Of a stretch of DNA of 64,000 bases, positions 1 to 64,000 are shown in pieces. Location: positions 11,679 through 75,678 of the forward strand of contig CAYYXO010000002.1 in assembly GCA_964475745.1 (NCBI GenBank). The letters run 5' to 3'. Made by a program: the position numbers and the translations under genes. The DNA is from an uncultured Candidatus Saccharibacteria bacterium. GTDB taxonomy: Bacteria > Patescibacteriota > Minisyncoccia > UBA6257 > JAKLIH01. The notes beneath the pieces are model-generated. The model did not search any database and was not told where the DNA came from. It saw only the letters and a program-made list of their open reading frames with translations. The number at the start of each line of letters is the position of its first letter. Within the stretch, counting starts at the first letter, position 1.

Positions 1-28
1 ATCGAAGTTTTTAGTGAATAAGATAATC

Positions 29-57
29 TTGCATTTTGTAATTTTTTGTGATATAAT
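29..57 (+). promoter_or_regulatory. sigma70-like promoter, TTGCAT, 17-nt spacer, TGaTATAAT (extended -10), upstream of secE
   Basis: Hexamers read directly from the sequence with a 17-nt spacer and a TG at -15/-14. Confidence 0.5.
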
Positions 58-85
58 AATTGACATAGATTAAACTTTTTAAATT

Positions 86-274
86 ATGGGTATTTTGAAG
101 AAACCAATAAGCTTTTTTAAAGAGGCTTTATTGGAATTGAAAAAGGTTCATTGACCAACAAAGAAAGAAGCCATTGCGCTAACAGGGGCAGTTTTAGTGA
201 TTGCTACTTTTTACGCGTTATTATTGTCTGGAATGGATTTTTCACTTAGTGAAATATTGCTAAAAATCTTTTAA
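86..274 (+). CDS. secE: preprotein translocase subunit SecE (62 aa, one in-frame TGA)
   Basis: Single TM segment and the KKVHWPTKKE motif, where TGA sits on the conserved Trp of SecE KVxWP. It has the classic position upstream of nusG-rplK. Confidence 0.75.
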
Positions 275-297
275 AAATAATTATAAGATAAAAACTT

Positions 298-846
298 ATG
301 GCTCGACAAGAGTTGGATTTAGGTAAAAATTGATATGTTTTGCATACTTCTCCTGGTTATGAGGAGGCAGTGGCAAAAAATTTGAAATCCAGAATAGAGG
401 CTTTTGATTTAACCGATAAAGTTTTTGATGTTTTGGTGCCTATTGAACAAAAAATAAAAATAAAAAATGGCAAAAGAACAACCTATGAAGAAAAAATTTT
501 TCCAGGGTATGTTTTTGTTGAAATGGTTGTTGATGATACTTCTTGATATGTAGTTCGTAACACACCACATGTAACAGGTTTTATTGGAGCAGGAACAACC
601 CCATTGCCAGTTGACAAAGGTGAAATGGATTTAATTTTTAAAAGAATTGGCGGAAGTGATCCTCATTATAAAATTGATTTTTCTGTCGGAGAAAAAGTTA
701 AAATAATAGATGGTCATTTTAAAGATTTTGATGGAGTAATAGAAGAGATTGATGCTGTGAAAGGTCGTATTAAAGTTTCAGTAGGTATTTTTGGCCGAGA
801 AACAAAAGTAGATGTTGATTTTCTACAAGTAAGTAAATTGTCTTAA
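298..846 (+). CDS. nusG: transcription antitermination factor NusG (183 aa, 2 in-frame TGA)
   Basis: The N-terminal GKN-TGA-YVLHT matches KRWYVV/KNWYVV. DDTS-TGA-YVVRNTPHVTGF matches DESWYVVRNTPGVTGF. A KOW motif lies in the C-terminal part. Both TGA codons fall on invariant Trp positions. Confidence 0.85.
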
Positions 847-870
847 TAAAATTAGTTAATAAAATATTAT

Positions 871-1296
871 ATGTCAAACAAGAAAGTAAAAACAGTTATT
901 AAATTAGAAATTCCAGCTGGGGCAGCTAACCCAGCTCCTCCAGTTGGTCCTGCGTTGGGTCAACATGGTATAAATATACAAGATTTTTGTTCTTCTTTTA
1001 ATGCTCAAACTCAAGAAAAAAAAGGAGATATAATCCCAGTGGAAATTTCCGTATATGAAGACAGAACTTTTTCTTTAGCCTTTAAGGAGCCGCCAGTGGC
1101 TAGCTTGTTATTAAAAGCAGCCAATATTCAAAAAGGTGCTGCAAATCCTTTGGCTAAAAAAGTAGCTAAGATTACTAAAGATCAAGTAAAAGAAATAGCC
1201 CAAAGAAAAATGCCTGATTTAAATGCTAATGATGTTGAAGGCGCTATGAAAATTATTGAAGGTACTGCTAGAAGCATGGGCATAGAAATTATTTAA
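871..1296 (+). CDS. rplK: 50S ribosomal protein L11
   Basis: [14 protein letters not shown] and the FNAQTQ motifs typical of L11. It has no internal TGA. Confidence 0.9.
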
Positions 1297-1307
1297 TATT
1301 TTGAAAA

Positions 1308-1338
1308 GAAAAGCCAGCCTTTATGGGCTGGTTTTTTT
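1308..1338 (+). terminator. rho-independent terminator after rplK
   Basis: Hairpin aaagccagcc-ttta-gggctggttt followed by a T-run. There is no rplA downstream. Confidence 0.6.
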
Positions 1339-1340
1339 GA

Positions 1341-1369
1341 TTGAATAAATTTTTTGATTATGCTATAAT
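1341..1369 (+). promoter_or_regulatory. sigma70-like promoter TTGAAT, 17 nt, TGcTATAAT, upstream of gatB
   Basis: Hexamers and spacing read from the sequence. Confidence 0.5.
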
Positions 1370-1396
1370 AAAGAATGTATATATTAAAAAAATTTT

Positions 1397-3031: not shown

Positions 3032-3580
3032 ATGAAAAATATTAAAAGCTATCTTTTGGAATTGATTGAGGTAGTAGTGATCGCCTTGCTAATAGTTATT
3101 CCTATTAGAATGTATCTAGTCACACCTTTTTTTGTGAGAGGTCAAAGCATGCAACCAAGTTTTCAAGACGGAGATTATTTGATAATTGACAAACTAAGCT
3201 TTAGAATTTCTGATCCCGAGAGAGGCGATATAGTTGTATTTAAGGCCCCTTTAGAGCAAAGTAGTTTTTATATAAAAAGAATTGTTGGTTTGCCAAGCGA
3301 AACAGTGGAAATAAAAGATGGCGGGTTAATAGTTTATAATAGCGACAACACAGAAGGCTGAGAATTAAAAGAATCATATTTGGAAAATCATCCAAATACT
3401 CCTGGTAATATAAAAATAAAACTCCAGGCAGATGAATTTTTTGTTTTAGGAGACAACAGGGAGGCTTCTTATGATTCAAGAGAGTGAGGCAGTTTAAAGG
3501 CGGATAGAATAGTTGGAAAGGTTTGGTTGAGGTTGGCACCCATTAATAAGGTGCAAGCTTTTTCTTTGCCTAAATATTAA
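3032..3580 (+). CDS. lepB: signal peptidase I (182 aa, 2 in-frame TGA)
   Basis: N-terminal TM segment, the catalytic-Ser region RGQSMQPSF, and the GDNREASYDSRE-TGA-G box matching GDNRxxSxDSRxWG, where TGA sits on the conserved Trp. Confidence 0.8.
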
Positions 3581-5671: not shown

Positions 5672-6877
5672 ATGAAAAACGCCTTATTGTCATTGGATGT
5701 CGGCACAAATAATATTTATGCGGTTTTGTTTCAATGCGAACAAAAACCCCAAGTGCTGCTTTCTATAAAAAAACCTTCCAATGGCGTGAGAAAGGGCTCA
5801 ATTCAAAATATTAATGAAGTTGTTCAAAATATTGACGGCCTGCTTGATGAAATTACCAGAGCAAGAGGCAAAAATGTTTCTCAAATTGTAATGAGCATTG
5901 GTGGGGCAAATGTTAGTATGACTAAAAGTCGCGGCATTGCTTTGATTTCCGGGAGAAACAATGTTGTTGATAGAGATACAATTGTTCGTTCGCAAAATTC
6001 ATCAAAAGCTTTGTTTTTGCCACCAGGAAGATCAACTTTACATGCGATTCCTCAAAGATATATTGTTGATGGCAATGAATTCGATGTGGAGCCATTAGGT
6101 ATGTCAGGTATGAGATTGGAAGTAGAAAGTGCTATAATAGATACAGATATTATGTCAATTAATAATGTTTCTCAAATAGCAGACAGTACAGGAGCTAGAA
6201 TAACAAATATATTTGCCAATCCTTTAAGCGGAACTTATTCTACTTTGAACAGAAAAGAAAAAGACTTAGGAGTTGTTGGCATTGATTTGGGAGCTAGCAC
6301 CACCACTATTTCGGTTTTTGAAGAAGGAAAACTAGTTTTTATGAAAACTATTCCTGTTGGTTGTGGCAAGATTAGCGACGATATTTGCTTATGACTTCAA
6401 ATAGCTCAAGAAGAGGGAGAAAAAATAAAATTACAATCAGGAGATGCTTATCCTGATAAAGTTGACAGTAAGGAGATATTAAACTTGGGAGATTTTGTTG
6501 CAAATGAAGACAGAAAGTTTAAAAAGAAAGATTTAGCTATGGTTATTTCTGCTAGACTGGAACAAATTTTTGATTTGATAAATAAAGAGCTAAAACAAAT
6601 AAATAAATTTGCTAATTTGCCAGGAGGAGCTGTTTTGTATGGAGGCGGATCTTTGATGCCACACATTATTGAACTAGCTAGAGAATGTTTAAAATTGCCA
6701 GCAAGAGTTGCTTTGCCGGAGGTAGAAGGTCATATTGAAGAAGATCCAGGATTTGCTGTTGCAATGGGTAATATTAAATTTATGTTTGAAGATAAAAATA
6801 TATCTGATAATTGTGTTGATTCAGGTGGAGGCCTTTTGGGCAAGATATTTAAAATGTTTGATAAGTTTAATTTATAA
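5672..6877 (+). CDS. ftsA: cell division protein FtsA (about 401 aa, 1 in-frame TGA)
   Basis: Actin-like ATPase with DVGTNNIYAV at the N-terminus and GGGSLMPHIIELA later. It sits directly upstream of ftsZ. The 5672 and 6485 segments are in the same frame across the TGA at 6395. Confidence 0.85.
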
Positions 6878-8323: not shown

Positions 8324-10552
8324 ATGAAAGAAAGCAAAAAAAATAGCCCTAAGTTGTTAAAAAATAAAGAGGCACAAAAGGAGAAAGATTTGAAGAAAGT
8401 AAAAATAGAATATCATATTAAAAAAATACAAAACAGAGATGGTTTAATAAATAGCTTTGACGAATCTAAGATACGCAATGCTATTTTTAAAGCATTTACA
8501 TCTACTGGCGAAGGTGATGAGAAAACAGTTGATAAGATATTAAGTAAAGTTTTGTATATTTTAAATAAAAGGTTTAAAAAAGATGAAGCTCCAACAGTGG
8601 AAAACATTCAAGACATTGTGGAAGAATGTTTGATGACTTTTGGGTACACAGAGACAGCCAAAAACTATATTTTATATCGTGAACAACGTCGCCGTATCAG
8701 AGAAAGTAAAATTGCATCTGGTGAAGCAGTTGATATTGTTGACGAATATTTAAAAGAGCTTGATTGAGAGGTAAAAGAAAATAGTAATACCACTTACTCT
8801 TTGCAGGGCATGAATAATTATATTGCTAATTATGTTTCAAAAAAATATTGATTAAATAAAATTTATACTCCAGAAATACGAAAAGCAAATAGAGAAAACT
8901 TTTTTCACATTCATGATTTAGGAACTATAGGTGCTTATTGTTGCGGTTGAGATTTATATGATTTATTGGTAAAAGGTTTTGGTGGGGTTTCAAGCAAAAT
9001 TCAATCAAAGCCACCAAAACATTTAAGAACTGCTTTAGGTCAAATTGTAAATTATTTTTATACTTTACAAGGAGAGGTGGCTGGCGCTCAAGCTTTTTCA
9101 AGTTTTGATACTTATCTTGCTCCGTTTATTCGTCATGATAAATTAAGCTATGCAGAAGTTAAACAAGCATTGCAAGAATTTATTTTTAATTGCAATGTGC
9201 CGACTCGCGTTGGATTTCAAACTCCTTTTACTAATGTTACGCTTGATTTAAAATGCCCAAGCCATACTAAGGATTTACCAGTAATTATTGGTGGAGTTCC
9301 TCAAAAAGAAACTTATGGTGAATATCAAGAAGAGATGGATCTTTTTAATAAAGTTTTATGCGAAGTATATACAGAAGGAGATGCCACTGGAAGAGTGTTT
9401 ACTTTTCCAATTCCAACTTACAATATAACTAAAGATTTTGAATGAGATAATCATGCTTTTGAGGGTATTTGAAAAATGACAGCAAAATATGGCATTCCTT
9501 ACTTTTCTAACTTTATTAATTCTGAAATGTCCCCAGAAGATGCTCGCTCGATGTGTTGTCGCCTTCGTCTCGATAATAGAGAGCTATATAAAAGAGGAGG
9601 AGGTTTGTTTGGGGCCAATCCAAAAACAGGAAGTGTGGGCGTGGTTACTTTAAATTTGCCAAGAATTGCTTATTTGTCAAAAACCAAAAATCAATTATTT
9701 AAAAACATTAGAAAATATATGGATTTGGCAAGAGAATCTTTAGAAATAAAAAGAAAAACCATTGAAAAATTAACAGACAAAGGTCTTTATCCCTATAGTA
9801 AATATTATTTACAAGATGTGGTAAAAATGAGAGGCTCTTATTGAGCAAATCATTTTTCTACTATTGGTATTGTTGGTGGCAATGAAGCAGCACTTAATTT
9901 TATTGGTCAAGACATTACCACAGCAGAAGGAAAAAGTTTTGTTTTGGAAATGCTGGATTTTATGAGATCTGTTTTGGTTGAATATCAAAAAGAAGACGAT
10001 GGCTTGTATAATTTAGAAGCAACACCAGCAGAAGGGACAGGTTTTCGTTTGGCAAGGCTGGACAAAAAAGAATTTCCAGATATTATTACTTCTGGCACAG
10101 ACAAAACGCCTTATTATACCAATTCAACACAAATGCCAGTTAATTTTTCAGATGACTTGTTTGAGGTTTTGGATTGGCAAGATGACTTGCAAACAAAATA
10201 TACTGGAGGAACAGTTTTGCATGGTTTTATTGGAGAAGAAATTTCAGAATATGAGTCGGTTAAGTCTTTGATAAGAACCATTTTTACAGACTATAAATTG
10301 CCTTATTTAACAGTAACACCAACATTTAGTGTTTGCCCAACGCATGGCTATTTAGCAGGAGAGCATGAGCTTTGTCCTAAATGCATTGTGGAGCAAAAAT
10401 GTGAAGTTTATTCTAGGGTGGTAGGCTATTTAAGACCAGTAGTAAATTGGCATGCCGGTAAACAACAGGAATTTAAAGATAGGGTGGAATTTACTATTAA
10501 AAGACAGTTTAATGTTTTTGATAATAAAAAAACGCCAGTAAATAAAAAATAA
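8324..10552 (+). CDS. nrdD: anaerobic ribonucleoside-triphosphate reductase, class III (about 742 aa, 5 in-frame TGA)
   Basis: N-terminal ATP-cone (IQNRDGLINSFDESKIRNAIF), the NrdD core (MTAKYGIPYFSNFINSEM), a C-terminal Zn ribbon CPKC and the glycyl-radical motif SRVVGYLRPV. The 8324, 8966, 9476 and 9944 segments are in one frame. Confidence 0.85.
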
Positions 10553-13606: not shown

Positions 13607-13674
13607 GCTATTTTGGCTATTGTATTTTTTCGTTTTTTTTGATAAAATATAAGTATAAAAATAATTATTGTTTT

Positions 13675-14754
<1,080 letters not shown>

Positions 14755-16853: not shown

Positions 16854-18995
16854 ATGAAAATAAAAATAAATAAGGTTTCTAGCAAGGTAGATAAAAAAGA
16901 AGAAAAAGCTATAAAAACTAATTTAACTAAAAAAGAAGGAAAGCCAAAAAAAGAAGTGGTTTTAAAAAATGAGGAAGCTAAAGACAATGGCTATACAGCT
17001 GAAAGTATTCATGTGCTTGAAGGCTTAGACCCGGTAAGAAGAAGGCCAGGCATGTATATTGGTTCAACTGGTATTTCTGGTTTGCACCATTTGGTTTGAG
17101 AAGTTTTTGACAATGCCATTGATGAAGCTTTGGGTGGTTTTTGTGATAATATAAAAATTGAATTATTAGAAAATAATCGCGTTAGTATTTTTGATAATGG
17201 TAGAGGTATTCCAGTTGATGTTCATAAACAAACAAAAAAATCCGCTTTAGAAACTGTTTTGACGGTTTTGCATGCTGGTGGTAAATTTGGTGGAGGATCT
17301 TATAAAATTTCTGGCGGTTTGCACGGTGTGGGTGTGTCAGTGGTAAATGCTTTGTCTAGCTACTTAAAAGCAGAAGTATACCGAGAAGGTTTTATTTATT
17401 GCCAAGAATATAGCTGTGGCAAGCCGTTAACAGAGGTCAAAAAGACTCAAACAAAAGAAAAAATAATGCATGGCACTCGGATTACTTTTGAGCCAGATGC
17501 AACCATTATGCAAGAAATAAATGTAGATTGAAAAACCATTTTAGATCATGTTAGGGAGCAAGCTTATTTGGTTAGAAAAATAAAAATAGATATTTCGGAT
17601 AAAAGAGACCCTGAAAATCAAAATGACTATGTTTTTTATTTTGAAAATGGTATTGTTGCCTTTCTAAGTTATTTGATAAAAGACCACAATACAAGGTCAA
17701 TACAGAAAAATATCTTTTTTACTGAAGAGACTTCCAATGAAATAGAAGTTGAGATTGCTTTGAGCTATACCACAGAGATTGAAACTTCCGAGTTTGCTTT
17801 TGCCAATAATATTCATACTCCAGAAGGAGGCATGCATTTAACCGGCTTTAGAGCCGCCTTAACAAGAGTTTTAAATGATTATTTAAAAAAGAACTATCCA
17901 AAAGAAAATTTATCACTAACAGGAGAAGATGTAAGGGAAGGCTTGATGGCAATTATTGCTGTAAAATTAAAAGAGCCTCAGTTTGAAGGTCAAACAAAGT
18001 CAAAACTTGGCAATCCAGAAGCAAGAGCTGCTGTTGAGCAAGTTATGTCAAAAGCATTTAGAGATTATTTAGAAAAGAACCCAGATGATGTAAAAAGAAT
18101 TTTAGAAAAATGTTTAGTTTCAGCTAAGGCAAGATCTGCTGCAAAGCTAGCAAGAGAAAATGTTTTGAGGAAAAGTGTTATGGAAAACACCACTTTGCCA
18201 GGAAAATTAGCTGATTGTATTAGTCGTAAAGCAGAAAATTCTGAATTGTTCATTGTTGAGGGCGATAGCGCTGGCGGCTCGGCCAAACAAGGAAGAGACC
18301 GTCATACTCAAGCCATTTTGCCTTTGCGAGGAAAAATTTTAAATGTTGAAAAGGCTAGATTAGATAGAATGATGACTTCAGAAGAAATTAAAGCGGTTAT
18401 TTTAGCTTTGGGAACTTCAATTGCAGAAGATTTTAATTTGAGCAAATTGCGTTATCATAAAGTTGTTTTGATGACTGATGCTGATGTAGACGGTGCTCAT
18501 ATTAGAACATTGCTTTTAACATTGTTTTATAGATATTTCTTAGGAGTAGTAGAAGGTGGATTCTTGTATGTTGCTCAGCCACCTTTGTATCGTATTCAAA
18601 GAGGTAAAGATTTCAGATATGCTTATACTGAAGGAGAGAAAGAAAAAATGATAGATGAGCTATTAAAGATAAAAGAGGCTAAAAAAGAAGCAGGAGCTAA
18701 AAAAGAAGAAAAAAATGAAGAAGAATCTCCAGAAGAAGTAGCAGAAGAAGTTTCAGACGAAATGAAAAAATACAAGGGATTAATAATCCAAAGATATAAA
18801 GGTTTGGGAGAAATGAACCCAGAGCAATTATGAGAAACAACTATGGATCCTAAAACAAGAATATTAAAAAAGATTACTATTGATGATGCTAAAGAAGCAG
18901 ACCGTTTATTTGACATTTTGATGGGAGAGGAAAGAATGCCTCGTAAAAAGTTTATCCAAGTGCATGCTAAAAAAGTTAAAAACTTAGATGTATAA
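16854..18995 (+). CDS. gyrB: DNA gyrase subunit B (about 713 aa, 3 in-frame TGA)
   Basis: [19 protein letters not shown] in the GHKL ATPase domain, the Toprim segment [15 protein letters not shown], and the C-terminal [20 protein letters not shown], where TGA sits on the invariant Trp. No gyrA follows. Confidence 0.92.
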
Positions 18996-22277: not shown

Positions 22278-22529
22278 ATAAAACAGTTAACTAATATTAA
22301 AAGTTCATATTCTTATGAATAAAAGAGATTCAAAAAACAGTTTAAAATTCAGGTGGTAAAAACACAGAGTTTTTCTTTGTGATTATACCGCTTGTCAAAA
22401 GCGGTTTTTTAATTCTCTAATAGTATTGGTTGATCTTTGAAAAAAGAATAAGGGTAAAATGTATTTTCATTGGAAAATTAAATAAAAAACTTAATTGAAG
22501 TTTCTTCAATGCTTTAATTAAGATGAGGA

Positions 22530-27178: not shown

Positions 27179-28270
27179 ATGATGGTTTATTTAGTTAAGA
27201 ATTGAAAAATATTTGTAAGTGTTTTTTTGTTGACAACATTAAGTTTGCTTATTTTAGCAAGTTTAAGCATGAATCCAGTTGATAATTTAGATGCCTTTTA
27301 TAGGCAGCTAGTTTTTTTTGTGATAGCAACAGTTTTTCTAATATTTTTTGCAAAATTTGATTATAATTTGCTTAAAAATCATTCTTTTTTTATCCTAGGA
27401 AATTATTTTTTATGAAATTTTTCTTTGATATTGTTGTTAGTTTTATCTCCAGTTACAAGAGGTACTAATCGTTGGTTTGATCTAGGTTTTTTCAGTTTAC
27501 AGCCAGTTGAGTTTGTAAAATTAGCTTTGATTTTAGTACTAGTGAAGTTTTTATATCGACGCAATTTAGAAATTTGAAATTTAAAAAATATTATAATCAG
27601 TGGAATATTTTTAGGCATACCTTCGGTTTTGGTTTTGCTGCAACCAGACTTGGGCCCAGTAGTGGCAATGTTTTTAATTTGATTAATTTTACTTTTGGTT
27701 TGTGGGCTGAGGTTCAAGCATTTATTAATTATGATAGTGTCGGTTTCGTTGGTGGCTATAGTTGGTTTTAATTTTATACTTCACGATTATCAAAAAAATC
27801 GTTTAATTTCTTTTTTAAATCCAAACTTAGATCCCATGGGCTTAAATTATAATCAACTTCAGTCAATGATAACCATAGGGAGTGGTCGTTTTTGAGGCAA
27901 AGGTTTGGGTTGAGGAACTCAAACTCAATTACAATATTTGCCAGAAACAAAAACAGATTTTATTTTTGCTGCCATTTCAGAAGAACTGGGGTTTTTAGGT
28001 GGCACCATTATTTTAGGAAGTTTTTTGTTAATGTTTAGTTATTTTGCAGATGCTTTAACTATAGCAAAAAATAATTTTAGCAAGCTTATTATCATTGGTT
28101 TTGGAGTGAAAATATTTTTAGAAACAGTTATAAATATAGGCGTAAATGTTGGGTTTTTGCCTGTTGTGGGCACAGCATTGCCTTTTATAAGTGCTGGAGG
28201 ATCTCATTTAATTGTAGATTTTATTATGGTCGGTATAATTTTAAATATTGTTAATGGACGTAATTACTAA
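27179..28270 (+). CDS. SEDS-family peptidoglycan glycosyltransferase (RodA/FtsW-like; about 363 aa, 5 in-frame TGA)
   Basis: GSGRF-TGA-GKGLG-TGA-GTQTQLQYLPETKTDFIFAAISEELGFLGG is the SEDS signature. The ORF-track segments 27227, 27695 and 27938 are in one frame with the ATG at 27179. Confidence 0.8.
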
Positions 28271-34606: not shown

Positions 34607-35317
34607 ATGGCAACAACAAAAAGGTATTTTTACTCAAATGAGTTTTATCATATTATTTTAAGAGGTATTGATGGAAAAACTTTGTTTTTAAACGACCAAG
34701 ACTATTTTAGAATGATCAATGGCATGTTTGTTTTTAATGATAAAGGGTTAATAGGTTCTTCTTTTCGACACAAAGGATGTCCAAATGATAGATTTGAAAG
34801 AAAAAGAAAAGGGCCTTTGGTAAATATACATGCTTTTTGCTTAATGCCAAATCACATTCATTTTTTGTTGGAACAAAAGGTTGAAGGGGGTCTGTCAAAA
34901 TTTATGTTAAAAATAGGAGCCGGCTATGCGGCTTTTTTTAATAATAAATATAAAAGAAAAGGCCATTTGTTTCAAAGCAGATTTAAGTCGGTTTTAATAA
35001 AAGATGATGATCAGTTGGCAGTAATTTTTTCTTATATCCATACAAATCCGGTTTCTATAATAGAACCTAATTGAAAGGAAAAGGGTATAAAAGATTTTAA
35101 AAAAGTTAGAAATTTTATTGAAACCTATAGGTGATCAAGTTATGCTGATTATTTAGGTAACAAAAATTTTCCAAATTTAACAAAAAGAAATTTTATGCTT
35201 CAAGATCAAAATCAACGCGCTTGAAGAAATTTCGTAGAAGACTGGCTAAAGTATAAGGCAGAGTTGTTTGAGCGTTTTTTTAAAGACAAAGGCAAAGATA
35301 GTTATTTATTGGAGTAA
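34607..35317 (+). CDS. IS200/IS605-family Y1 (HuH) transposase-like protein, RAYT/COG1943-like (about 236 aa, 3 in-frame TGA)
   Basis: HuH motif LMPNHIHFLL, the catalytic-Tyr region FSYIHTNPV, and C-terminal YR-TGA-SSYADY matching the WSSY box. It uses TGA for Trp, so it is host-adapted. No tnpB is adjacent. Confidence 0.7.
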
Positions 35318-40364: not shown

Positions 40365-41309
40365 ATGGGTACATCAATAAGTACAAAATTAAAAAGAATT
40401 TTTAAAAGAGGAATCTTAATTTTAAAAAGAAATGGTTGGTTAACGGTAGCTACAGTCATAACCATGTTTTTAAGTATTTTAGTTTTTACTGGTGTTTTGA
40501 CAATGAACTATGCTTCAAATAAATTTATTGATCATTTACAAGATAAAATTGATATTAGTGTTTATTTTAAAACAGGCGTTGACGAGGGAGAAATTTTAAA
40601 TATTCAAGAAGAGATTGGCAAAGTCGAAGGAGTGGCTAGGACAGAATATGTTTCTAGAGAAAAAGCACTGACTTTTTTTAGAGAAAGATATGGTCACAAT
40701 GAAACAATTTTAAAAGCTTTAGAAGAAATAGGAGAAAACCCTTTGTCAGCTTCAATTAATATAAAAGTAAGCAGCCCTGAATATTATGAAACAGTTTTGT
40801 CATATATTGAAACATCAATATATAAAGACAAGCTAGAAAGAAAAAATTTTACTGAGAGTAGAGATTTGATAGAAAGAGCCTCTGGCTTTATAACGGGTTT
40901 AAAAATAGGCTCAATTGCCATTACTTTAGTTTTAACAACAGTGGCCGTAATAGTAGCCTTTAATACTATAAGAATTGCTATTTATGCTATGAGAGAGGAA
41001 ATAGGTATTATGAAACTAGTAGGTGCGTCTAATTGATTTATTAGAGGTCCATTTCTTTTAGCTGGATTTTTCTATGGATTAATTGCTGCTTTATTGTCGT
41101 TTGTTTTCTATATTCCGTTTCTTTTGAATTTTGGGAAAAAATTTGATGTTTTTGTTGGACAAGCAAGCATAACAGGAGGCTTCTTTTCAAGTTTTATTGG
41201 TTTGTTAATAGTCCAGCTTATTTTTGGAGCTATCTTGGGAGTTATTTCAGCTCTTTGAGCTATTGCTAAGCATTTGAATAGAAAGTTGCCATCTGCAGGA
41301 GAATGTTAA
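40365..41309 (+). CDS. ftsX: cell division permease FtsX (about 314 aa, 2 in-frame TGA)
   Basis: N-terminal TM segment, a periplasmic domain, and a C-terminal three-TM region with VGASN-TGA-FIRGPF matching the GATxGFIxxPF box. Confidence 0.8.
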
Positions 41310-43517: not shown

Positions 43518-43519
43518 TG

Positions 43520-43590
43520 CTGCGGGACTTGGACTCGAACCAAGATACTCGGCTTCAAAGGCCGATGTCCTACCATTAGACGATCCCGCA
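43520..43590 (-). tRNA. tRNA-Gln (anticodon UUG)
   Basis: The reverse complement folds as a 7-bp acceptor TGCGGGA/TCCCGCA with U1-A72 (typical of tRNA-Gln), D-stem GTCT/GGAC, anticodon stem TCGGC/GCCGA with loop CTTTGAA, and T-arm CTTGG-TTCGAGT-CCAAG. CCA is not encoded. Confidence 0.8.
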
Positions 43591-45232: not shown

Positions 45233-47848
45233 ATGGAAAACGACAAAAAAATATTAATGATTGTCGATAGCAATGCCTTAATACATAGAGCTTACCATGC
45301 TTTGCCTGGGCTGACAGCTCCAGACGGCACATTGGTAAATGCAGTATATGGTTTTTGTTTGATTTTTTTTAAGGCAATAACTGAAATAAAGCCAGACTAT
45401 ATTGTGGCTAGTTTTGATGTTAAGGGAAAGACTTTTCGCCATGATGAATTTGAAGATTATAAAGCAACTAGAGAAAAAAAAGCAGATAATTTTTACCATC
45501 AGATACCAATAATTAAAGATGTTTTAAAAAGTATGGATGTTTTGGTTTTGGAAAAACAAGGATTTGAAGCTGATGATGTAATAGGCACAGTAGCAGAAAT
45601 GACCAAAGATGAAAATTTAGAAACAGTGGTGGTTACTGGAGATTTAGATACTCTGCAGCTTTTAAGAGAAGATTTAAAAGTATGAACTTTAAAAGTTGGC
45701 ATCTCAAACAGTGTGGTTTATGATATTAAAAAATTTAAAGAAAGGTATGAGCTGGAAGTTGATCAGTTTGTTGATTTTAAAGCATTAAAGGGAGACCCTT
45801 CAGATAATATTCCTGGAGTTGCTGGGGTTGGAGATAAAACGGCTATGGATGTTTTAAAAAAACATGGTAGTTTAGAAAAGCTATATCAAGAAATAGATGG
45901 TATTTTAGCTGACCCAATGCTGAAGCCAAAAGATAAAAAACTTTATTTAAAATTAAAAGAAGCCGAAGACGAGGCTATGTTTAGCCAACATCTATCTATG
46001 ATAAAAAGAGATGTAGAAATTGATTTTAGTTTGGCTAAGGCAAAATTTGATTTTAAAGAAAAAGAAAAAACAGCTAAAATTTTTAGAGAGCTTGGCTTTA
46101 CTTCTTTAGTGGCCAAGCTAAACATGAATATGATTGAAAGCGCTTCAAAAATAAAAGATACAAAAAATAAAAAAGAAGTAAAGATGGCGAGTGACTTAGC
46201 AGAATTTCAAAAAGAATTGAAAAAAGAAAAGATTTTTATTTTAGAAAATGAGCAGACAAATGAAAAGGAACCAGGATTGATCTTGTTTTTTGAAAAAGAA
46301 GAATATTTTGTTTGAGTAAAAGTTTTGAAAGATAATATAAAAGATATAAAAGAAATATTAAAAAATAGAGATTTGATTGTTTTTGATGCTAAGAATTTGT
46401 ATTATAAATATGCAAATTGTTTTGAGAATTTTTGTTTTTATGATTTAAAAATAGCTTTTTGGCTTTTGGATTCTCAGAGAAAAGATTACACTATAGAAGC
46501 TATGGTTAAAAAACTTAATATTAAGAGTGAAAAAGCTTTTAGTTTTTTATATAACTATGATATAGAGGATTGGGTTTTGCTTTTTAACGATCTTTACAGG
46601 ATTAGTTGGTCCAAAATTATTAATTTGAAGTTGGAAAGAGTTTTAAATGAAATTGAAAAACCTTTGATAGGGGTTTTAGTTGACATGGAAAAAAATGGTA
46701 TAAAACTTGACGTAAATTATTTAAAAAAAGTCAAAGATCAAATTAGATTGTTGATTTTAGAGCTAGAAGAGGAAATTTATGAGTTGGTGGGTGAAAAGTT
46801 TAATGTTAATTCACCAAAGCAATTATCGGAAATTTTGTTTGAAAAATTAAAAATATCAACAAAAGGATTGGCAAAAACAAGTACTAAAAAAATATCAACA
46901 AATAGCGATGAGCTAGAAAAGATTTTAGAAAGCCATGAGGTAATATCAAAGATTATAAAATATCGAGAATTGTCAAAATTGGAAAATTCTTTTTTAAACA
47001 CTTTGCCTAAGTTTGTAAGCAAAGAAGATGGTCGCATTCATACGACTTTTGTGCAAACAGGAACAGCTACAGGCAGACTTTCTTCTGACACGCCTAATTT
47101 ACAAAATATTCCAGTGAGAGGCGAGACAGGATCTTTAGTGAGAAAAGCTTTTGTGGCAGAAGAGGGTTGAGATTTGGTTTCTTTTGATTATTCTCAGATG
47201 GAATTAAGAATCGCTGCTAAGCTTTCAAATGACCCAAAAATGTTGAAAGCATTTAGAGAGGGAAAAGATTTTCATCGATATACTGCCAGCCTAGTCAATA
47301 AGATTGATTATGAAAAAGTAACAAAAATTCAGAGAGATAAGGCTAAGGCACTTAATTTTGGCATTATTTATGGTATGGGCTCAAAAGCTTTTTCTTTATC
47401 AGCTAATATTTCTAGGGATGAAGCTAAAGAATTTATAAAGCAATATTTTCAGATATATGATGAGTTAAAAAATTTTATGGAAGGTTTAAAAAATATAGCA
47501 AAGGAAAAAGGCTATGCAGAAACATTGTTTGGGAGAAAGAGATTTTTGCCTTTTATTGGTTCAGTTGGCATGCAAGCAGCGATGGATGAAAGAATTGCTA
47601 TAAATATGCCGGTGCAGGGTTTGGCAGCTGATATTATAAAATGCGCCATGGTAAAGATAAATAAATATTTAAAAGATAATAATTTGCAAAATGAAATAAA
47701 AATGGTTTTGCAGATTCACGATGAATTAATTTTTGAAGTTAAAAAAAATGTGACAGAAAAAGAAATTTTTGATACAATAAAAAACATCATGGAAGAAAAT
47801 GAATTTGATATTTTATTAAAAGTTGATAATAAAGTCGGCAAAAATTGA
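45233..47848 (+). CDS. polA: DNA polymerase I (about 871 aa, 3 in-frame TGA)
   Basis: A 5'-nuclease domain (LLMIVDSNALIHRAYHA.., GDPSDNIPGV) and a polymerase domain (RIHTTFVQTGTATGRLSS, AEEG-TGA-DLVSFDYSQMELRI matching EEGWxLVxxDYSQIELR, QIHDELIFE). The 3'-5' exo region appears degenerate. Confidence 0.9.
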
Positions 47849-47867
47849 GGCGATTTAAAATAAAAAT

Positions 47868-55895: not shown

Positions 55896-56291
55896 ATGGA
55901 CTATGGCAAACATTTGCTGTTAGAGGTTGTTACCAAAGATGGCAAAGATTTGGCAAGTGTTGCTAAAATGAAGAAGTTTTTTGATTTGATTATTAATAGA
56001 GTTGGCTTCAACATTGTTTTTAAGCCAATGTTCTACAAATTTAAACCAAGAATCAAAGGAGAACTTGCTGGCATTACTGGCATGTGCATAGTGAGTGAAT
56101 CACATATTTCTATACATACTTGACCAGAAAAAAACTATTTTTCTTTTGATATTTTTTCTTGCAGCGATTTCGATGTAAATAAAGTTGTGGACATAGTAGA
56201 AGAAGTCTTTCTGGCAAAGGAAATTTATTCAGAGATTATTGAAAGAGGTTTAAAAATAAACTTCAAAAAGAAGCGCAAAAAAGGCAGTTAA
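55896..56291 (+). CDS. speH: S-adenosylmethionine decarboxylase proenzyme, small SpeH/SpeD type (about 131 aa, 1 in-frame TGA)
   Basis: GKHLLLEV...ESHISIHT-TGA-PEKNYFSFDIFSC matches the class 1 AdoMetDC processing-site region ESHISIHTWPE...DIFTC. TGA falls on the conserved Trp. Confidence 0.8.
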
Positions 56292-58559: not shown

Positions 58560-58641
58560 GCCGAAGTGGCGGAACTGGCAGACGCGCACGACTCAAAATC
58601 GTGTGGAGCAATCCATGTGGGTTCGACCCCCACCTTCGGCA
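58560..58641 (+). tRNA. tRNA-Leu (anticodon CAA)
   Basis: Acceptor GCCGAAG/CTTCGGC with discriminator A, anticodon stem CACGA/TCGTG with loop CTCAAAA, a 13-nt long variable arm (type II), and T-arm GTGGG-TTCGACC-CCCAC. Confidence 0.8.
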
Positions 58642-58687
58642 CAAGAAGTTCTGATAATTTTAAATAAATTAAGGTTAAATATTTAAA

Positions 58688-61201: not shown

Positions 61202-61202
61202 T

Positions 61203-62423
61203 TTAAAAATCCGAGAAATCATCATAAACTTTGGCATGGATGTTTTTATTGATGTCTCCGTTGGTAAATAATTTTGTGTCTTTTTTGTTGGTGGTTTTAA
61301 CAATTTTTACTTTGTTTTTTACTTTTTTACATGTTTCTATTTGTTTTCTGGTGTCTTCTGGTATTTCTCTCATAATATCATTAAAAGATTCTTTATCTAT
61401 TTTGATTAAACCATTTCATTTGTCTAGTGGTTGCAAAATTTCTTTGATCTTTTTTCATTCATAAGTGTAGATTTCTTTGTCATTGATTTCAAAACAACCC
61501 TCATCACTTTCAAGTTTGAAGAGTTTTTTTTGAACAAGAAAGTTGTCTATTTGGCATTTGATTTTGTCAATCTCTTTTTCTAAAATTCTTTTTTTGTCAT
61601 GAAGAGTAAAATATTTGTTGATTAAATGCTTAGTACTTTGTTCGTCTTTAGGGATCTCTTTTTGTTGGTAGTTTCTAAAAGCAGGACAAATATTTTTAAA
61701 ACCACATCAATTGCATAAAATAGTTGGTTTTGGCGGAAAAATCTTTTCTTTTTCTATGTCTTTTATAGTTTTGATTATTTGGTATTTGGTTTTTTCTAAA
61801 TCATCAATATTTCGTTTGGTTTTTAGATGTTCTTGGTGGCGCAGAAAATACAAAGAAAGATCTAGCTTATCTAATTCAATTTTGGGTCATTTATTAATGA
61901 CAGCCATTGCATATATGGAAAGCTGGTTGTTGTCGTCAACATTTTTTTGAGTTGGGAGTCTTTTGCCAGTTTTGTAATCAACAATTTCATAGTGATTGTT
62001 TATTTTACTAATGCGGTCAATAATGCCAGAAACAATATGCAGATTATTGTTGGGCTCCTTTATTTCTAGTTCAAAAGGAGATTCAAGACCCAAAACAGTA
62101 AGTTTATCAAAATGATTGTTCTGGTAAAAGCCTTTAAGCATCATTATGCCTTCGTCAAAATTAAAGCCATTTAAATTTTTTTCTTTATTGCTTTTTAAGT
62201 CAAAATATTTGATTTCACCAAAATGAGCTTCATAAAAGGAAAGCAGATCTTTTAAAGATATTTTTTTTGGGTCATTTTCAAAGAATCATTGTAAAACGTA
62301 ATGCAAATAAGTGCCAAAAACAGCTGCTTCTGATTTTGGCTCAATTAACTTGTCTATTTTGCCCAACTTGTATTTATGGGGGCATTGTTTGAATGTTTCT
62401 AAAGAAGAATGTGAAACGCGCAT
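61203..62423 (-). CDS. Cas4-like/RecB-family PD-(D/E)xK nuclease with a 4Fe-4S cysteine pattern (about 406 aa, about 6 in-frame TGA)
   Basis: Minus-strand frame rejoined across TGA. N-terminal QCPHKYKL supplies the first Cys. The nuclease core is GIIDRISKINNHYEIVDYKTGK...QLSIYAMAV. The C-terminal CNWCGFKNICP supplies CxxCx5C. Only the 85-aa piece at 61887..62144 is visible in the ORF track. Confidence 0.65.
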
Positions 62424-62538
62424 ATATTTTGTTTAATTGAATATATAAAAGTATAACAAAGATGAGGATAAAAAACAATATTGAAAACATCCATTAATTG
62501 TGGTATAATGTAAGCAGATACTTGAAAAGGAGGTAAAA

Positions 62539-62670
62539 ATGTTTTGGAAGGGGTTGGCTGTTTTAGTTTGTTTCCATTTTGTCAATTTGTTGTTAAAAGT
62601 TGTCTCAAAAGGAAAAAAAGATATGAGATCTAAAAGATTGATCGAAGATATCAAAAGATTTAAGAAATAA
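62539..62670 (+). CDS. small hypothetical protein (43 aa) with a perfect Shine-Dalgarno
   Basis: GAAAAGGAGGTAAAAATG gives an AAGGAGGT SD 7 nt upstream. There is one hydrophobic helix and a weak hairpin plus T-run downstream. Confidence 0.3.
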   Translation: MFWKGLAVLVCFHFVNLLLKVVSKGKKDMRSKRLIEDIKRFKK

Positions 62671-62754
62671 ACCGTATTTTGAAGAAAAATGCGGTTTGTT
62701 TTTTTGAATAAATTTGATACAATTTATTTAATAAAATAAATTATAAATATTTGT

Positions 62755-63603
62755 ATGAAAAAAAAGATTGAAAAAATAGCTTTCTTTTACAATGAAAAGA
62801 ACAGAAAGGCAGCTGTTTGGGCAAAAGAAATTAAATTGCTCGTAGGAAAGTTAAACAAAAGTATTGTTTTTACGAATGAGCAGCCAGATGTGGTTTTTGT
62901 TTTGGGAGGAGACGGCATGATTATAAGAGCCATAAAGCATTTTAATTACAGCCAAGCTTTGTTTATGGGTTTTAATTTGGGCAAAGTGGGATTTTTGATG
63001 TCAGTAAGAAATCAGAGATATTTTTTAGAAAGTGTTAAAAAGTTTTTTGAGGGGGAATATTTTGTAAGCTCAAGAAATCTTTTGAGAGTTGAAGTGATAA
63101 GAGATAATAAGGTGGTATTTAAAGATAATGTTTTAAATGAAGTGGTGGCGCAAAGTTTGCTTGGTATGGTCAATTTAGATGTAAAGATTGATGGCTTTCC
63201 TTTTCAAAATATTTTTGGCACAGGGGTTTTGGTTTCTACAACAACAGGGTCAACTGCTTATAACTTATCTGCTCATGGCCCAATAGTAATGCCAAGCATT
63301 GGTTGTATGATTTTGAGTGAATTGATGGATCATAATATACCAACTCCTAGCTTAATAGTTTCTTTAGATAAAAAAATAATAATTGATGTGGTGGAGTTTA
63401 GAAAAAAAGATATTGTTAAGATAAAACAAGGGGGAGGAATGATAGAAGCAGATGTTTTATTAATAAGCGATGGCCAGCAGTTGTTTTCTTTAGAAAAAGG
63501 AGATAAGGTTGTGGTCAAAAACAATAATAAAAAGGTTGATATTGTGGAGCTAGATAAAGACTACTTTTTGTTTAGCCTAAAAGATAAGTTTTACAAGAAA
63601 TAG
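62755..63603 (+). CDS. nadK: NAD kinase
   Basis: GGDGMIIRA motif, an NE/DV box and the overall length fit NadK/PpnK. Confidence 0.85.
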   Translation: MKKKIEKIAFFYNEKNRKAAVWAKEIKLLVGKLNKSIVFTNEQPDVVFVLGGDGMIIRAIKHFNYSQALFMGFNLGKVGFLMSVRNQRYFLESVKKFFEGEYFVSSRNLLRVEVIRDNKVVFKDNVLNEVVAQSLLGMVNLDVKIDGFPFQNIFGTGVLVSTTTGSTAYNLSAHGPIVMPSIGCMILSELMDHNIPTPSLIVSLDKKIIIDVVEFRKKDIVKIKQGGGMIEADVLLISDGQQLFSLEKGDKVVVKNNNKKVDIVELDKDYFLFSLKDKFYKK

Positions 63604-63630
63604 CCCAAAAGCGGCTTTCTAGAAAGGAGG

Positions 63631-63659
63631 TTGACAAGATTAAAAAAGTTTGCTAGTAT
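63631..63659 (+). promoter_or_regulatory. sigma70-like promoter TTGACA, 17 nt, TGcTAGTAT
   Basis: Read directly from the sequence. It drives a short structured transcript. Confidence 0.45.
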
Positions 63660-63665
63660 ATTAAT

Positions 63666-63736
63666 AGTTGAGTGATAGAGCTTCGGCAATATTGCTCAAC
63701 TACTGAAAGAAATCTGTTTTCGGACAGGTTTTTTTC
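63666..63736 (+). ncRNA. candidate small RNA or leader: two hairpins ending in an intrinsic terminator
   Basis: Hairpin 1 is ttgagtgatagagcttcggcaatattgctcaa, containing a UUCG loop. Hairpin 2 is ctgttttcggacagg followed by TTTTTTT. It sits between a consensus promoter and the next ORF at 63901. Confidence 0.3.
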
Positions 63737-63900
63737 TTTTATTTTAGAAATTGGCTAAATTATTGATATTTGCTAAAAAAGATGCCTATTGGTAAGGTTT
63801 TTAAAATTGTATCGGGGGTTGATTTTTTTGTAAAAATTAGCTAAAATAATAAATAGGAAAATAGCTTAAGCTAGTTATTTAATAAATAAACAATAAAAAC

Positions 63901-64000
63901 ATGAAAAAGAAAAATATAATAATGATTATTGTGCTGATTGTTATTATTGCCATGGCAATGATTTGAGCGTTAAAAAATAGTGTAATTTCCCCAACCACAA
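63901..64000 (+). CDS. hypothetical membrane protein, 5' part only
   Basis: MKKKNIIMIIVLIVIIAMAMI-TGA-AL is a hydrophobic N-terminus that runs off the window. Confidence 0.3.

What the first reader, a model, noticed from the sequence alone, without database searches (positions are those of the whole stretch)
1..64000. UGA is a sense codon throughout the window; best fit Trp (table 4), with a few Gly-aligned sites
Almost every conserved gene is split by in-frame TGA in the ORF track, yet the frames are contiguous. TGA falls on invariant Trp in SecE (KVxWP), NusG (WYVV, SWYVVRNTP), LepB (SRxWG), PheS (HPARDMWDTFW), GyrB (PEQLWETTMDP), Pol I (EEGWxLV), SpeH (SIHTWPE) and the RAYT WSSY box. In FtsA (DISIGLRT region) and FtsX (GATxGFI) TGA instead aligns with a conserved Gly. 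The dominant signal is therefore Trp and not the Gly code (table 25) known from Gracilibacteria/SR1. The organism encodes SEDS, MltG, a PG-binding protein, FtsEX and CtpA, so it is not a wall-less Mollicute. TGG is still used alongside TGA.
Basis: partly seen in the sequence, partly recalled or inferred. Interest (0 to 1): 0.65.

Follow-up and report, generated by a model that had tools for sequence, protein, structure and literature searches.

The report
UGA read as tryptophan in CPR bacterium

Summary
With TGA as sense, 53 credible genes (17,340 codons) hold 109 in-frame TGA and 58 TGG, and 38 of the 53 genes are interrupted. Coding density rises from 64% to 84%.

TGA means Trp, not Gly.
- At 23 TGA sites alignable to 20 standard-code relatives, the aligned residues are W 96, F 25, R 17, Y 14 and G 0. 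The summed BLOSUM62 score is W +57.5, Y +19.5 and G −50.5.
- Against seven recoded relatives, TGA alternates with TGG at many sites. Window GGN aligns to TGA in only 9 of 4,830 pairs.
- The two "Gly-aligned" sites come from comparison with Proteobacteria. FtsA codon 241 is TGG, TGA or TTT within the clade. The FtsX site is W in Mycobacterium tuberculosis.

The organism is a Patescibacterium. The MAGs nearest it are labelled Paceibacterota (GTDB class Minisyncoccia). The recoded lineages form one clade.

UGA→Trp in this class was reported in 2026 for family JAKLIH01 and genus GCA-2747955, with tRNA-Trp(UCA) present and RF2 absent. The window's stop usage (85% TAA, 15% TAG) matches JAKLIH01.

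tRNA(UCA) and RF2 status cannot be tested on 64 kb. Relatives show only tRNA-Trp(CCA) near secE.

Verdict: real, correctly interpreted, and a new member of a recently described kind.

The parts
1..64000 (+). Whole window. It holds 53 credible protein genes, nearly all on the + strand, read with UGA = Trp. There are 109 in-frame TGA codons. All genes end in TAA (44) or TAG (8).
86..274 (+). secE. The TGA at 152-154 (codon 23, KKVHxP) is TGG = Trp in seven standard-code relatives and TGA in all seven recoded lineages.
298..846 (+). nusG. The TGA codons at 331-333 and 544-546 align with W in 19/19 and 19/20 standard-code relatives. Relative L005 has TGG at the first site and L026 has TGG at the second.
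3032..3580 (+). lepB (signal peptidase I). The TGA at 3485-3487 (DSRExG) aligns with F in the three best solved signal peptidase I matches (4nv4 and the SpsB fusions). It is TGA or TGG in all recoded lineages.
5672..6877 (+). ftsA. Distant homologues have A or G. The recoded clade has TGA, TGG (L032, L026) or TTT (three lineages).
8324..10552 (+). nrdD (class III ribonucleotide reductase). It has six in-frame TGA codons (8765, 8849, 8948, 9443, 9470, 9842). Each is only TGA or TGG in all recoded lineages.
13639..14754 (+). pheS. The motif HPARDMxDTFxL has TGA at 14128-14130 and 14140-14142. Thermus thermophilus PheS has W at both. Other solved PheS have H or Q at the first and Y at the second.
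16854..18995 (+). gyrB. The TGA codons are at 17097-17099 (W 14, Y 3), 17529-17531 (W 11, R 6) and 18831-18833 (PEQLxETTMDP, W 17/17), counted in standard-code relatives.
27179..28270 (+). SEDS (FtsW/RodA family) gene with six TGA codons. Aligned residues in 10 standard-code relatives are W 10/10 at codon 168, F 10/10 at codons 239 and 245, F/Y at 133 and S/Y at 79.
34607..35317 (+). IS200/Y1-type (RAYT-like) transposase. The TGA codons at 35072-35074 and 35132-35134 (YRxSSY) align with W in 113 of 120 homologues. The third, at 35222-35224, falls in a variable column (C 78, Y 19, W 8).
40365..41309 (+). ftsX. The TGA at 41034-41036 (GASNxFIRGPF) aligns with G in E. coli and P. aeruginosa FtsX, A in a third solved FtsX (8tzj) and W in M. 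tuberculosis. A second TGA at 41256-41258 lies next to the conserved AWLA motif, and the alignment continues past it.
45233..47863 (+). polA. The TGA at 47168-47170 (AEEGxDLVSFDYSQ) aligns with Y in E. coli Klenow fragment. The TGA at 47846-47848 (GKNx) lies one residue past the end of the alignment to E. coli ...GEN.
56121..56123 (+). TGA in speH (AdoMet decarboxylase, 55896-56291), motif SIHTxPE. It aligns with W in the Thermotoga maritima and Aquifex enzymes.
43519..43590 (-). tRNA-Gln(UUG). This and tRNA-Leu(CAA) at 58560-58642 (+) are the only tRNA genes in the window. No tRNA-Trp of any anticodon is present.

Best explanation
The window comes from a Patescibacteria (CPR) bacterium. The nearest MAGs are labelled Paceibacterota, which corresponds to the GTDB class Minisyncoccia. 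In its lineage UGA has been reassigned genome-wide from stop to tryptophan (translation table 4). UAA and UAG are the only terminators.

Shown here:
- UGA occurs in frame in about 70% of the genes.
- It sits at positions that are Trp, or another aromatic residue, in standard-code relatives.
- It is interchangeable with UGG among recoded relatives.
- The recoding is shared by a monophyletic set of at least seven lineages, so it arose once in their common ancestor.

Inferred, not shown here: UGA is decoded by a tRNA-Trp with anticodon UCA encoded elsewhere in the genome, and release factor 2 (prfB) has been lost. Both were reported for the Minisyncoccia lineages JAKLIH01 and GCA-2747955. The low G+C content (31.6%) favours TGA over TGG, 109 to 58. 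The retained tRNA-Trp(CCA) still serves UGG.
For: - ORF statistics and coding density.
- At 23 TGA sites compared with 20 standard-code relatives, aligned residues are W 96, F 25, R 17, Y 14, P 10, S 9 and G 0. Summed mean BLOSUM62 is W +57.5, Y +19.5, F +6.9 and G -50.5.
- The standard-code relatives have no in-frame TGA in the aligned regions.
- Codon exchange with recoded relatives: window TGG aligns to TGA 57 times and to TGG 23 times. Relatives' TGA aligns to window TGA 235, TGG 57 and TTT 37 times. Window GGN aligns to TGA in 9 of 4,830 pairs.
- Solved structures: T. thermophilus PheS has W at both motif sites, T. maritima and Aquifex SpeH have W, and M. tuberculosis FtsX has W.
- The Y1 transposase has W in 113 of 120 homologues at two sites.
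- Trp budget: TGG 0.33%, TGA plus TGG 0.96%. 15 of 28 long genes have no TGG.
- ORFs bounded by TAA or TAG reach the C-termini of orthologues. In-frame TGA is not enriched near gene ends.
- The recoded lineages are monophyletic on a NusG+L11 neighbour-joining tree.
- Literature: PMC13092985 reports JAKLIH01 with tRNA-UCA in 2 of 4 genomes, no RF2, and stop usage UGA 0%, UAA 82-88%, UAG 12-18%. The gTranslate preprint 10.64898/2026.05.24.727570 reports the same for JAKLIH01 and GCA-2747955.
- Window stop usage is TAA 44, TAG 8, i.e. 85% and 15%.
Against: - No tRNA(UCA) was found in the window or in about 400 kb of loci from recoded relatives. Those loci carry only tRNA-Trp(CCA), 1-3 kb upstream of secE.
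- RF2 absence cannot be assessed from 64 kb.
- Membership of JAKLIH01 itself could not be proven. None of the assemblies recovered (GCA_964350215.1, GCA_029553885.1, GCA_028709345.1, GCA_964557595.1, GCA_029557075.1) is among the four named in the paper.
- Some TGA sites align with non-aromatic residues (R, P, S) in distant relatives. This is expected for variable columns.
- One TGA, at about 39568 and 15 codons before the TAA of the dcd ORF, could in principle be a stop.
Confidence: 0.93

Rival explanations
1. UGA encodes glycine (table 25), as in Gracilibacteria and Absconditabacteria (GTDB class JAEDAM01).
For: The organism is a Patescibacterium, the phylum in which table 25 occurs. At the FtsA site distant homologues have A 55 and G 44. 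At the FtsX site E. coli and P. aeruginosa have G.
Against: - No Gly is aligned at any of 23 sites in 20 standard-code relatives. Gly scores -50.5 against +57.5 for Trp.
- Window GGN aligns to TGA in only 9 of 4,830 pairs against recoded relatives, whereas TGG aligns to TGA in 57 of about 130 pairs.
- The FtsA site is TGG or TTT in clade members.
- The FtsX site is W in M. tuberculosis.
- With TGA as Gly, Trp would be 0.33% of residues, and GyrB, GatB, PheT and HisS would have no Trp at all.
- Relatives are labelled Paceibacterota, Magasanikbacteria or Uhrbacteria, not Gracilibacteria.
Confidence: 0.01
2. The code is standard. The in-frame TGAs are real stops in pseudogenes, or are assembly or sequencing errors.
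For: Public gene calls made with table 11 split the same genes into fragments (JGI calls on L033 and L039; NCBI fragments).
Against: - 38 of 53 genes would be broken, including secE, nusG, gyrB, pheS, polA and ftsA.
- The frame stays intact and conserved across each TGA.
- The same TGA positions are conserved in independent assemblies from different samples and lineages.
- Only TGA is affected, never TAA or TAG.
Confidence: 0.005
3. UGA = Trp, but decoding is done, wholly or largely, by the near-cognate tRNA-Trp(CCA) and not by a dedicated tRNA-Trp(UCA). This is the mechanism proposed for Ca. Zinderia and strain XS4.
For: - Every recoded relative with enough upstream sequence carries tRNA-Trp(CCA), and none shows a UCA tRNA nearby.
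- This tRNA has U11:A24, the state created by the Hirsh UGA-suppressor mutation, and a G27.U43 wobble at the top of the anticodon stem. [quoted passage not shown]
- tRNA(UCA) was detected in only 2 of the 4 JAKLIH01 genomes in PMC13092985.
Against: - A24 is common in bacterial tRNA-Trp. From my own knowledge, it is also the natural state in B. subtilis.
- The anticodon stem is a formal 5-bp stem.
- UGA is the majority Trp codon (109 to 58), which would be costly with wobble-only reading.
- gTranslate reports that most of the 22 recoded Minisyncoccia genomes have tRNA-Trp(UCA). Its absence from some fragmentary MAGs is expected.
- Only a few percent of each relative's genome was seen here.
Confidence: 0.1
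4. UGA is ambiguous, meaning Trp at most positions but also terminating some genes depending on context.
For: In the dcd ORF (38887-39618) a TGA at about 39568 is followed by only 15 non-conserved codons before the TAA. The tandem TGA-TGA at 58775-58780 lies in a non-conserved leader of the ctpA ORF.
Against: - There is no excess of TGA near 3' ends. Counts per relative-position decile are 15, 16, 13, 10, 20, 14, 7, 7, 6, 9.
- Genes with standard-code orthologues align to their C-termini without extension.
- TGAs close to the 3' end of ftsX and polA are followed by conserved residues.
- JAKLIH01 genomes show 0% UGA stops and lack RF2.
Confidence: 0.04

Closest known systems
UGA-to-Trp reassignment in Patescibacteriota class Minisyncoccia: family JAKLIH01 (order UBA6257) and genus GCA-2747955 (Nucleic Acids Res 2026, PMC13092985; gTranslate preprint 10.64898/2026.05.24.727570)
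   Same: - Same phylum. The class is probably the same, since the nearest recoded MAGs are labelled Paceibacterota or Pacebacteria.
- Same reassignment, UGA to Trp.
- Same stop usage: window 85% UAA, 15% UAG and no UGA; JAKLIH01 82-88%, 12-18% and 0%.
- A canonical 5-bp anticodon-stem tRNA-Trp(CCA) is retained.
- The clade is family-deep and monophyletic, consistent with a single origin.
   Different: - The window's genome is not one of the four named assemblies as far as can be told. Its sequence was not found among GTDB r232 species representatives. The closest of those has 94% identity in NusG and 85% in FtsA.
- tRNA(UCA) presence and prfB absence are not verified for this organism.
- Formal placement in JAKLIH01, as opposed to GCA-2747955 or a third lineage, was not possible.
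Translation table 25 (UGA = Gly) of Gracilibacteria and Absconditabacteria (SR1, BD1-5; GTDB class JAEDAM01)
   Same: Same phylum (CPR/Patescibacteria). UGA is removed from the set of stop codons. The genome is small and low in G+C.
   Different: The amino acid is Trp, not Gly (0 Gly among the aligned residues). The class is different and the origin is independent.
Translation table 4 in Mycoplasmatales/Entomoplasmatales and in reduced endosymbionts (Hodgkinia, Nasuia, Zinderia, Stammera, Pinguicoccus, Organicella), plus Eggerthellaceae (PMC13462651)
   Same: UGA = Trp. UGA is preferred over UGG in an AT-rich genome. tRNA-Trp(CCA) is kept alongside the new reading.
   Different: The phylum is unrelated. 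The organism encodes peptidoglycan machinery (SEDS, MltG, a PG-binding protein, FtsEX, CtpA), so it is not wall-less. It is found in anaerobic-digester, landfill and groundwater metagenomes, not in insect bacteriomes.

Membership tests
Translation table 4 (UGA = Trp) | In-frame UGA in conserved genes at positions occupied by Trp in standard-code homologues | tested here: met
   Aligned residues are W 96 of 180 and G 0. W is the best BLOSUM62 candidate at +57.5. Motif-level matches come from PDB homologues and a 120-sequence alignment.
Translation table 4 (UGA = Trp) | UGA and UGG are interchangeable (synonymous) between related genomes | tested here: met
   Window TGG aligns to TGA 57 times and to TGG 23 times. 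Window GGN aligns to TGA in 9 of 4,830 pairs. Per-lineage TGA/TGG alternation is seen at NrdD, HisS, LepB, NusG and FtsA sites.
Translation table 4 (UGA = Trp) | A tRNA-Trp able to read UGA, typically with anticodon UCA | not testable with these tools
   The window has only tRNA-Gln(UUG) and tRNA-Leu(CAA). Relatives' loci show only tRNA-Trp(CCA). A metagenome pattern scan returned only mitochondria and one Mollicute. The rest of the source contig (94,415 bp) could not be fetched.
Translation table 4 (UGA = Trp) | Loss of release factor 2 (prfB) | not testable with these tools
   No release-factor (RF-1 or PCRF) Pfam hit appeared among the window ORFs scanned or the precomputed hits for their syntenic counterparts in relatives. 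A 64-kb window cannot show absence from the genome. Absence is reported for JAKLIH01 and GCA-2747955.
Translation table 4 (UGA = Trp) | UGA is not used as a terminator | tested here: inconclusive
   ORFs closed by TAA or TAG match orthologue C-termini, and TGA is not enriched near 3' ends. One case, the tail of dcd with its TGA at about 39568, cannot be decided.
Translation table 25 (UGA = Gly; Gracilibacteria/Absconditabacteria) | In-frame UGA at conserved Gly positions, and UGA interchangeable with GGN | tested here: not met
   There are 0 Gly among 180 aligned residues, and Gly scores -50.5. GGN aligns to TGA in 0.19% of pairs. The two apparent Gly sites are W or F within the clade, or W in M. 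tuberculosis.
Patescibacteriota family JAKLIH01 (order UBA6257, class Minisyncoccia) | Phylogenetic placement in the named GTDB family | tested here: inconclusive
   - The nearest recoded MAGs are labelled Paceibacterota or Pacebacteria.
- The recoded clade is monophyletic and family-deep, with FtsA identity down to 48%.
- L005 (JAQUZI01) and GCA_028709345.1 (JAQVXC01) carry JAQ-series WGS prefixes like the JAKLIH01 member JAQVPP01 (GCA_028702045.1). This suggests, but does not show, the same submission batch.
- No recovered accession equals one of the four published ones.
Patescibacteriota family JAKLIH01 (order UBA6257, class Minisyncoccia) | Stop-codon usage of about 82-88% UAA, 12-18% UAG and 0% UGA, with a retained 5-bp anticodon-stem tRNA-Trp(CCA) | tested here: met
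   Window stops are TAA 44 and TAG 8. The tRNA-Trp(CCA) of relatives has the stem G27-U43/C28-G42/G29-C41/G30-C40/U31-A39.
Selenocysteine recoding of UGA | UGA at Cys/Sec-aligned active-site positions in a few selenoprotein genes, with a SECIS element and tRNA-Sec | tested here: not met
   109 sites lie in 38 of 53 genes. No Cys is aligned in standard-code relatives. The only Cys-rich column is a variable site in the transposase. No tRNA-Sec is present.
Mollicutes (classical table 4 bacteria) | Wall-less Bacillota lineage | tested here: not met
   SEDS, YceG/MltG, PG_binding_1, FtsEX and an S41 protease are present. All close relatives are Patescibacteria MAGs.

The most novel reading that the evidence does not exclude
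This organism could belong to a recoded Patescibacteria lineage distinct from the two published ones, which would mean a third, independent or deeper origin of UGA = Trp in the CPR. Alternatively, or in addition, it could read UGA without any tRNA(UCA), using its tRNA-Trp(CCA) with a Hirsh-type U11:A24 pair and a G27.U43 stem top. Either would make it a natural free-living-type model for near-cognate stop-codon capture.
Probability: 0.12. Interest if true: 0.6.

Novelty: new member of a known kind. Interest (0 to 1): 0.35.

Why it matters
Patescibacteriota is so far the only bacterial phylum known to use tables 11, 25 and 4. Each further recoded genome helps date and map the Trp reassignment.

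There is also a practical consequence. This genome and its relatives are mis-annotated when called with table 11, which fragments the genes (seen in JGI and NCBI calls), or with table 25, which puts Gly where Trp belongs. That corrupts protein databases and completeness estimates.

Beyond that, the window adds no new principle.

Tried and rejected
1. **Fetching the source contig.** The window's FtsA is in the protein collection (P0001, NCBI, contig 94,415 bp), but the exact-match contig look-up found nothing. The L11 look-up gave only contigs of 5.4 kb or less that start inside the window.

2. **Searching for tRNA(UCA).** ARAGORN and Rfam on the window found none. ARAGORN on all relatives' loci found only tRNA-Trp(CCA). 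A metagenome scan used the clade's tRNA-Trp D-arm and anticodon arm with the anticodon changed to TCA. It returned 11 contigs. Ten appear mitochondrial (cob and nad genes where ORFs could be read, and tRNA clusters). One (L052) is a Mollicute by RuvB homology.

3. **Linking the clade to the published JAKLIH01 assemblies.** Five contig look-ups returned other assemblies. The NAR supplement lists no contig names that match. The gTranslate supplement is not held.

5. **PDB search with the Y1 transposase.** It found nothing. A homologue search replaced it.

6. **Alternative readings.** Gly decoding, pseudogenes or sequencing errors, and selenocysteine were all considered and rejected (see rival explanations and the membership test).

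Full report
**1. What the window is**

The 64-kb window has 31.6% G+C and a strong positive GC skew throughout. Almost all genes lie on the + strand. It carries 23S rRNA (22522-25582), 5S rRNA (25640-25745) and 16S rRNA (30151-31676). It has only two tRNA genes, Gln(UUG) and Leu(CAA).

Pfam and synteny identify these genes: secE, nusG, rplK, gatB, lepB, hisS, ftsA, ftsZ, nrdD, nrdG, comEC, an MBL-fold protein, pheS, pheT, gyrB, gatC, gatA, a PG_binding_1 protein, a SEDS protein, yceG/mltG, recR, an IS200/Y1 transposase, a D12 methyltransferase, dcd, ftsE, ftsX, an ABC exporter, an MscS channel, polA, a histidine kinase, queA, tgt, queH, speH, a CtpA-type S41 protease, rplI, rpmA, a PD-(D/E)XK nuclease and NAD kinase.

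**2.

Treating TGA as sense raises the summed length of ORFs of at least 100 aa from 15,401 to 25,344 aa. The longest ORF grows from 433 to 879 aa. Treating TAG as sense, as a control, gives only 18,481 aa.

Non-overlapping ORFs cover 64% of the window under table 11 (median 161 aa) and 84% under table 4 (median 284 aa). rRNA adds about 7%.

In 53 credible genes (17,340 codons) there are 109 in-frame TGA and 58 TGG. 38 of the genes are interrupted by TGA. 15 of the 28 genes of 300 aa or more contain no TGG at all. Gene ends are TAA 44 and TAG 8.

**3. Which amino acid**

A NusG-based scan of one genome per GTDB species returned 22 loci. Two are close relatives (L004 at 94% identity, L005 at 86%) with the same low table-11 coding density. 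Twenty are Patescibacteria MAGs at about 60% identity or lower (39-61%), labelled Magasanikbacteria, Paceibacterota or Uhrbacteria. These twenty have normal coding density and no in-frame TGA in the aligned genes.

At the 23 window TGA sites alignable to these standard-code relatives, the aligned residues are W 96, F 25, R 17, Y 14, P 10, S 9, V 3, I 2, others 4, and G 0. Summing the mean BLOSUM62 score over sites for each candidate amino acid gives W +57.5, Y +19.5, F +6.9 and G -50.5.

Invariant-Trp sites include:
- SecE codon 23 (TGG in 7 of 7 relatives)
- NusG codons 12 and 83 (19/19 and 19/20)
- GatB codon 258 (5/5)
- GyrB codon 660 (17/17)
- SEDS codon 168 (10/10)

Solved structures agree. 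T. thermophilus PheS reads HPARDMWDTFWL against the window's HPARDMxDTFxL. T. maritima and Aquifex SpeH read (L/S)IHTWPE. The aligned Bacillota-type signal peptidases (4nv4, SpsB) have F at the LepB site. E. coli Pol I has Y at the EEGx site.

In a 120-sequence alignment of the Y1 transposase, two of its three TGA sites are W in 113 sequences. These homologues are mostly from other CPR groups and share 40-52% identity with the window protein.

**4. Evidence from recoded relatives**

An FtsA homologue search and contig look-ups recovered syntenic loci of six further lineages that are also recoded. Table-11 gene calls on them are fragmented, and table-4 calls are whole.

Across these loci, window TGA sites are TGA or TGG in lineage after lineage. 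All six NrdD sites show only TGA or TGG. Window TGG aligns to TGA 57 times and to TGG 23 times. Window GGN aligns to TGA in only 9 of 4,830 pairs. This is the pattern expected of synonymous codons for Trp. It is not compatible with Gly.

**5. The 'Gly-aligned' sites**

At FtsA codon 241, distant homologues do have A (55) or G (44). In the recoded clade the position is TGA, TGG or TTT. The TGG cases are L032-L035, whose FtsA translates without any TGA, and L026. The TTT cases are three lineages. This is a lineage-specific aromatic substitution.

The FtsX site (GASNxFIRGPF) aligns with G in E. coli and P. aeruginosa FtsX, A in a third solved FtsX (8tzj), and W in M. tuberculosis (GASRWYTQLPF).

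These sites therefore give no support to Gly or dual decoding.

**6. Is UGA still a stop?**

ORFs closed by TAA or TAG align to the C-termini of standard-code orthologues without extension. In-frame TGA is not enriched toward 3' ends. TGAs near the ends of ftsX and polA are followed by conserved residues.

One case is undecidable: a TGA 15 codons before the TAA of the dcd ORF, in a non-conserved tail.

**7. Mechanism**

A tRNA able to read UGA, and the state of prfB, lie outside what 64 kb can show.

Every recoded relative with enough upstream sequence has a tRNA-Trp(CCA) 1-3 kb upstream of secE. None has a tRNA(UCA) in the stretch seen. That tRNA has a 5-bp anticodon stem topped by a G27.U43 wobble, and a U11:A24 pair. 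A24 is the state produced by the Hirsh UGA-suppressor mutation, but it is common in bacteria.

A metagenome scan for a UCA version of this tRNA found only mitochondria and one Mollicute.

The mechanism I commit to is a dedicated tRNA-Trp(UCA) plus loss of RF2. It is inferred from the published analyses of the recoded Minisyncoccia. Near-cognate reading by tRNA-Trp(CCA) remains a minor rival at about 0.1.

**8. Comparison with what is known**

Two 2026 papers report UGA-to-Trp in Patescibacteriota.
- PMC13092985 describes family JAKLIH01 (order UBA6257, class Minisyncoccia). It found tRNA(UCA) in 2 of 4 genomes and no RF2. Stop usage was UGA 0%, UAA 82-88% and UAG 12-18%. tRNA-Trp(CCA) had a 5-bp stem.
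- The gTranslate preprint adds genus GCA-2747955. It states that most of the 22 genomes carry tRNA-Trp(UCA) and lack prfB.

The window matches on phylum, probable class, amino acid, stop usage (85% and 15%) and tRNA-Trp(CCA) type. Its clade is monophyletic on a NusG+L11 tree and family-deep, with FtsA identity down to 48%. That fits JAKLIH01 better than a single genus.

I could not tie any recovered assembly to the four published accessions. The window's own sequence was not found among GTDB r232 species representatives, where the best NusG match is 94%. I therefore file it as a new member of a known kind, not as 'already known'.

**9. Verdict**

The Gly caveat is an artefact of comparison with distant homologues.

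The phenomenon would have been a notable discovery before 2026. Now it is a confirmation in one more genome. Its practical value is for annotation: use table 4 here, not 11 or 25. Interest is 0.35.

Noticed in passing
window 22522-31676: The rRNA genes are permuted and unlinked. 23S and 5S come first, then four protein genes, then 16S. The four genes are a PG_binding_1 protein (25861-27177), SEDS (27179-28270), YceG/MltG (28273-29274) and RecR (29290-29913). The 23S match spans 3,061 nt against a 2,925-nt model, so it may hold an insertion.
   Followed up: partly
window 8324-10552; L036 5699-10090; L038 12651-17060: NrdD is intein-free in the window (742 aa). In recoded relatives it carries a LAGLIDADG-type intein (1,463-1,469 aa). 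GyrB alignments to several standard-code relatives (L006, L010, L020, L022) are split by 0.4-1.3 kb, which suggests inteins there too.
   Followed up: no
L004 4698-4771 (-), L005 8456-8527, L032 1739-1812: The tRNA-Trp(CCA) of the recoded clade is almost invariant across lineages. It has U11:A24, the state made by the Hirsh UGA-suppressor mutation, and a G27.U43 wobble at the top of the anticodon stem. It lies 1-3 kb upstream of secE, just outside the window.
   Followed up: partly
window 58775-58780: A tandem TGA-TGA, with a third TGA 5 codons later, lies in the non-conserved N-terminal leader of the CtpA-type protease ORF (58688-60058). The real start codon may lie downstream.
   Followed up: no
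window 38887-39618: The dCTP deaminase ORF has a 40-residue Lys-rich and then hydrophobic tail beyond the Pfam domain. A TGA at about 39568 sits 15 codons before the TAA. This is the one place where TGA acting as a stop cannot be excluded. The annotated start is probably the Met at codon 25.
   Followed up: no
window 34607-37398: A possible mobile or defence patch. It holds an IS200/Y1-type transposase (34607-35317), a D12 (Dam-type) N6-adenine methyltransferase (35770-36783), and an adjacent 199-aa ORF with no Pfam hit (36799-37398) that could be its restriction partner.
   Followed up: no
window 50774-52960: A 728-aa secreted, very Cys-rich protein with only a weak Kazal-type inhibitor hit. 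It has six TGA and four TGG codons. Its function is unknown.
   Followed up: no
window 33247-34446: A 399-aa ORF made of two similar halves (…LKHFDINFVEKNx… and …LKHYDMRFFGINx…), each with a TGA at the equivalent position. It has no significant Pfam hit.
   Followed up: no
window 49535-50707: A membrane protein with a weak match to the Trp/Tyr permease family (PF03222, E = 3.9e-07).
   Followed up: no
L033, L039, L054, L056, L057 (JGI, ENA and NCBI gene calls): Public gene calls for this clade made with table 11 split nusG, gatB, hisS, ftsZ, nrdD, gyrB and other genes into fragments. NCBI also holds fragment proteins such as 108-aa and 101-aa 'hypothetical proteins' from ftsA. The clade is systematically mis-annotated in public databases.
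   Followed up: partly
L043-L053: The tRNA(UCA) pattern scan recovered ten apparently mitochondrial contigs from freshwater metagenomes and one Mollicute contig (L052). All are TGA = Trp systems unrelated to the window.
   Followed up: yes
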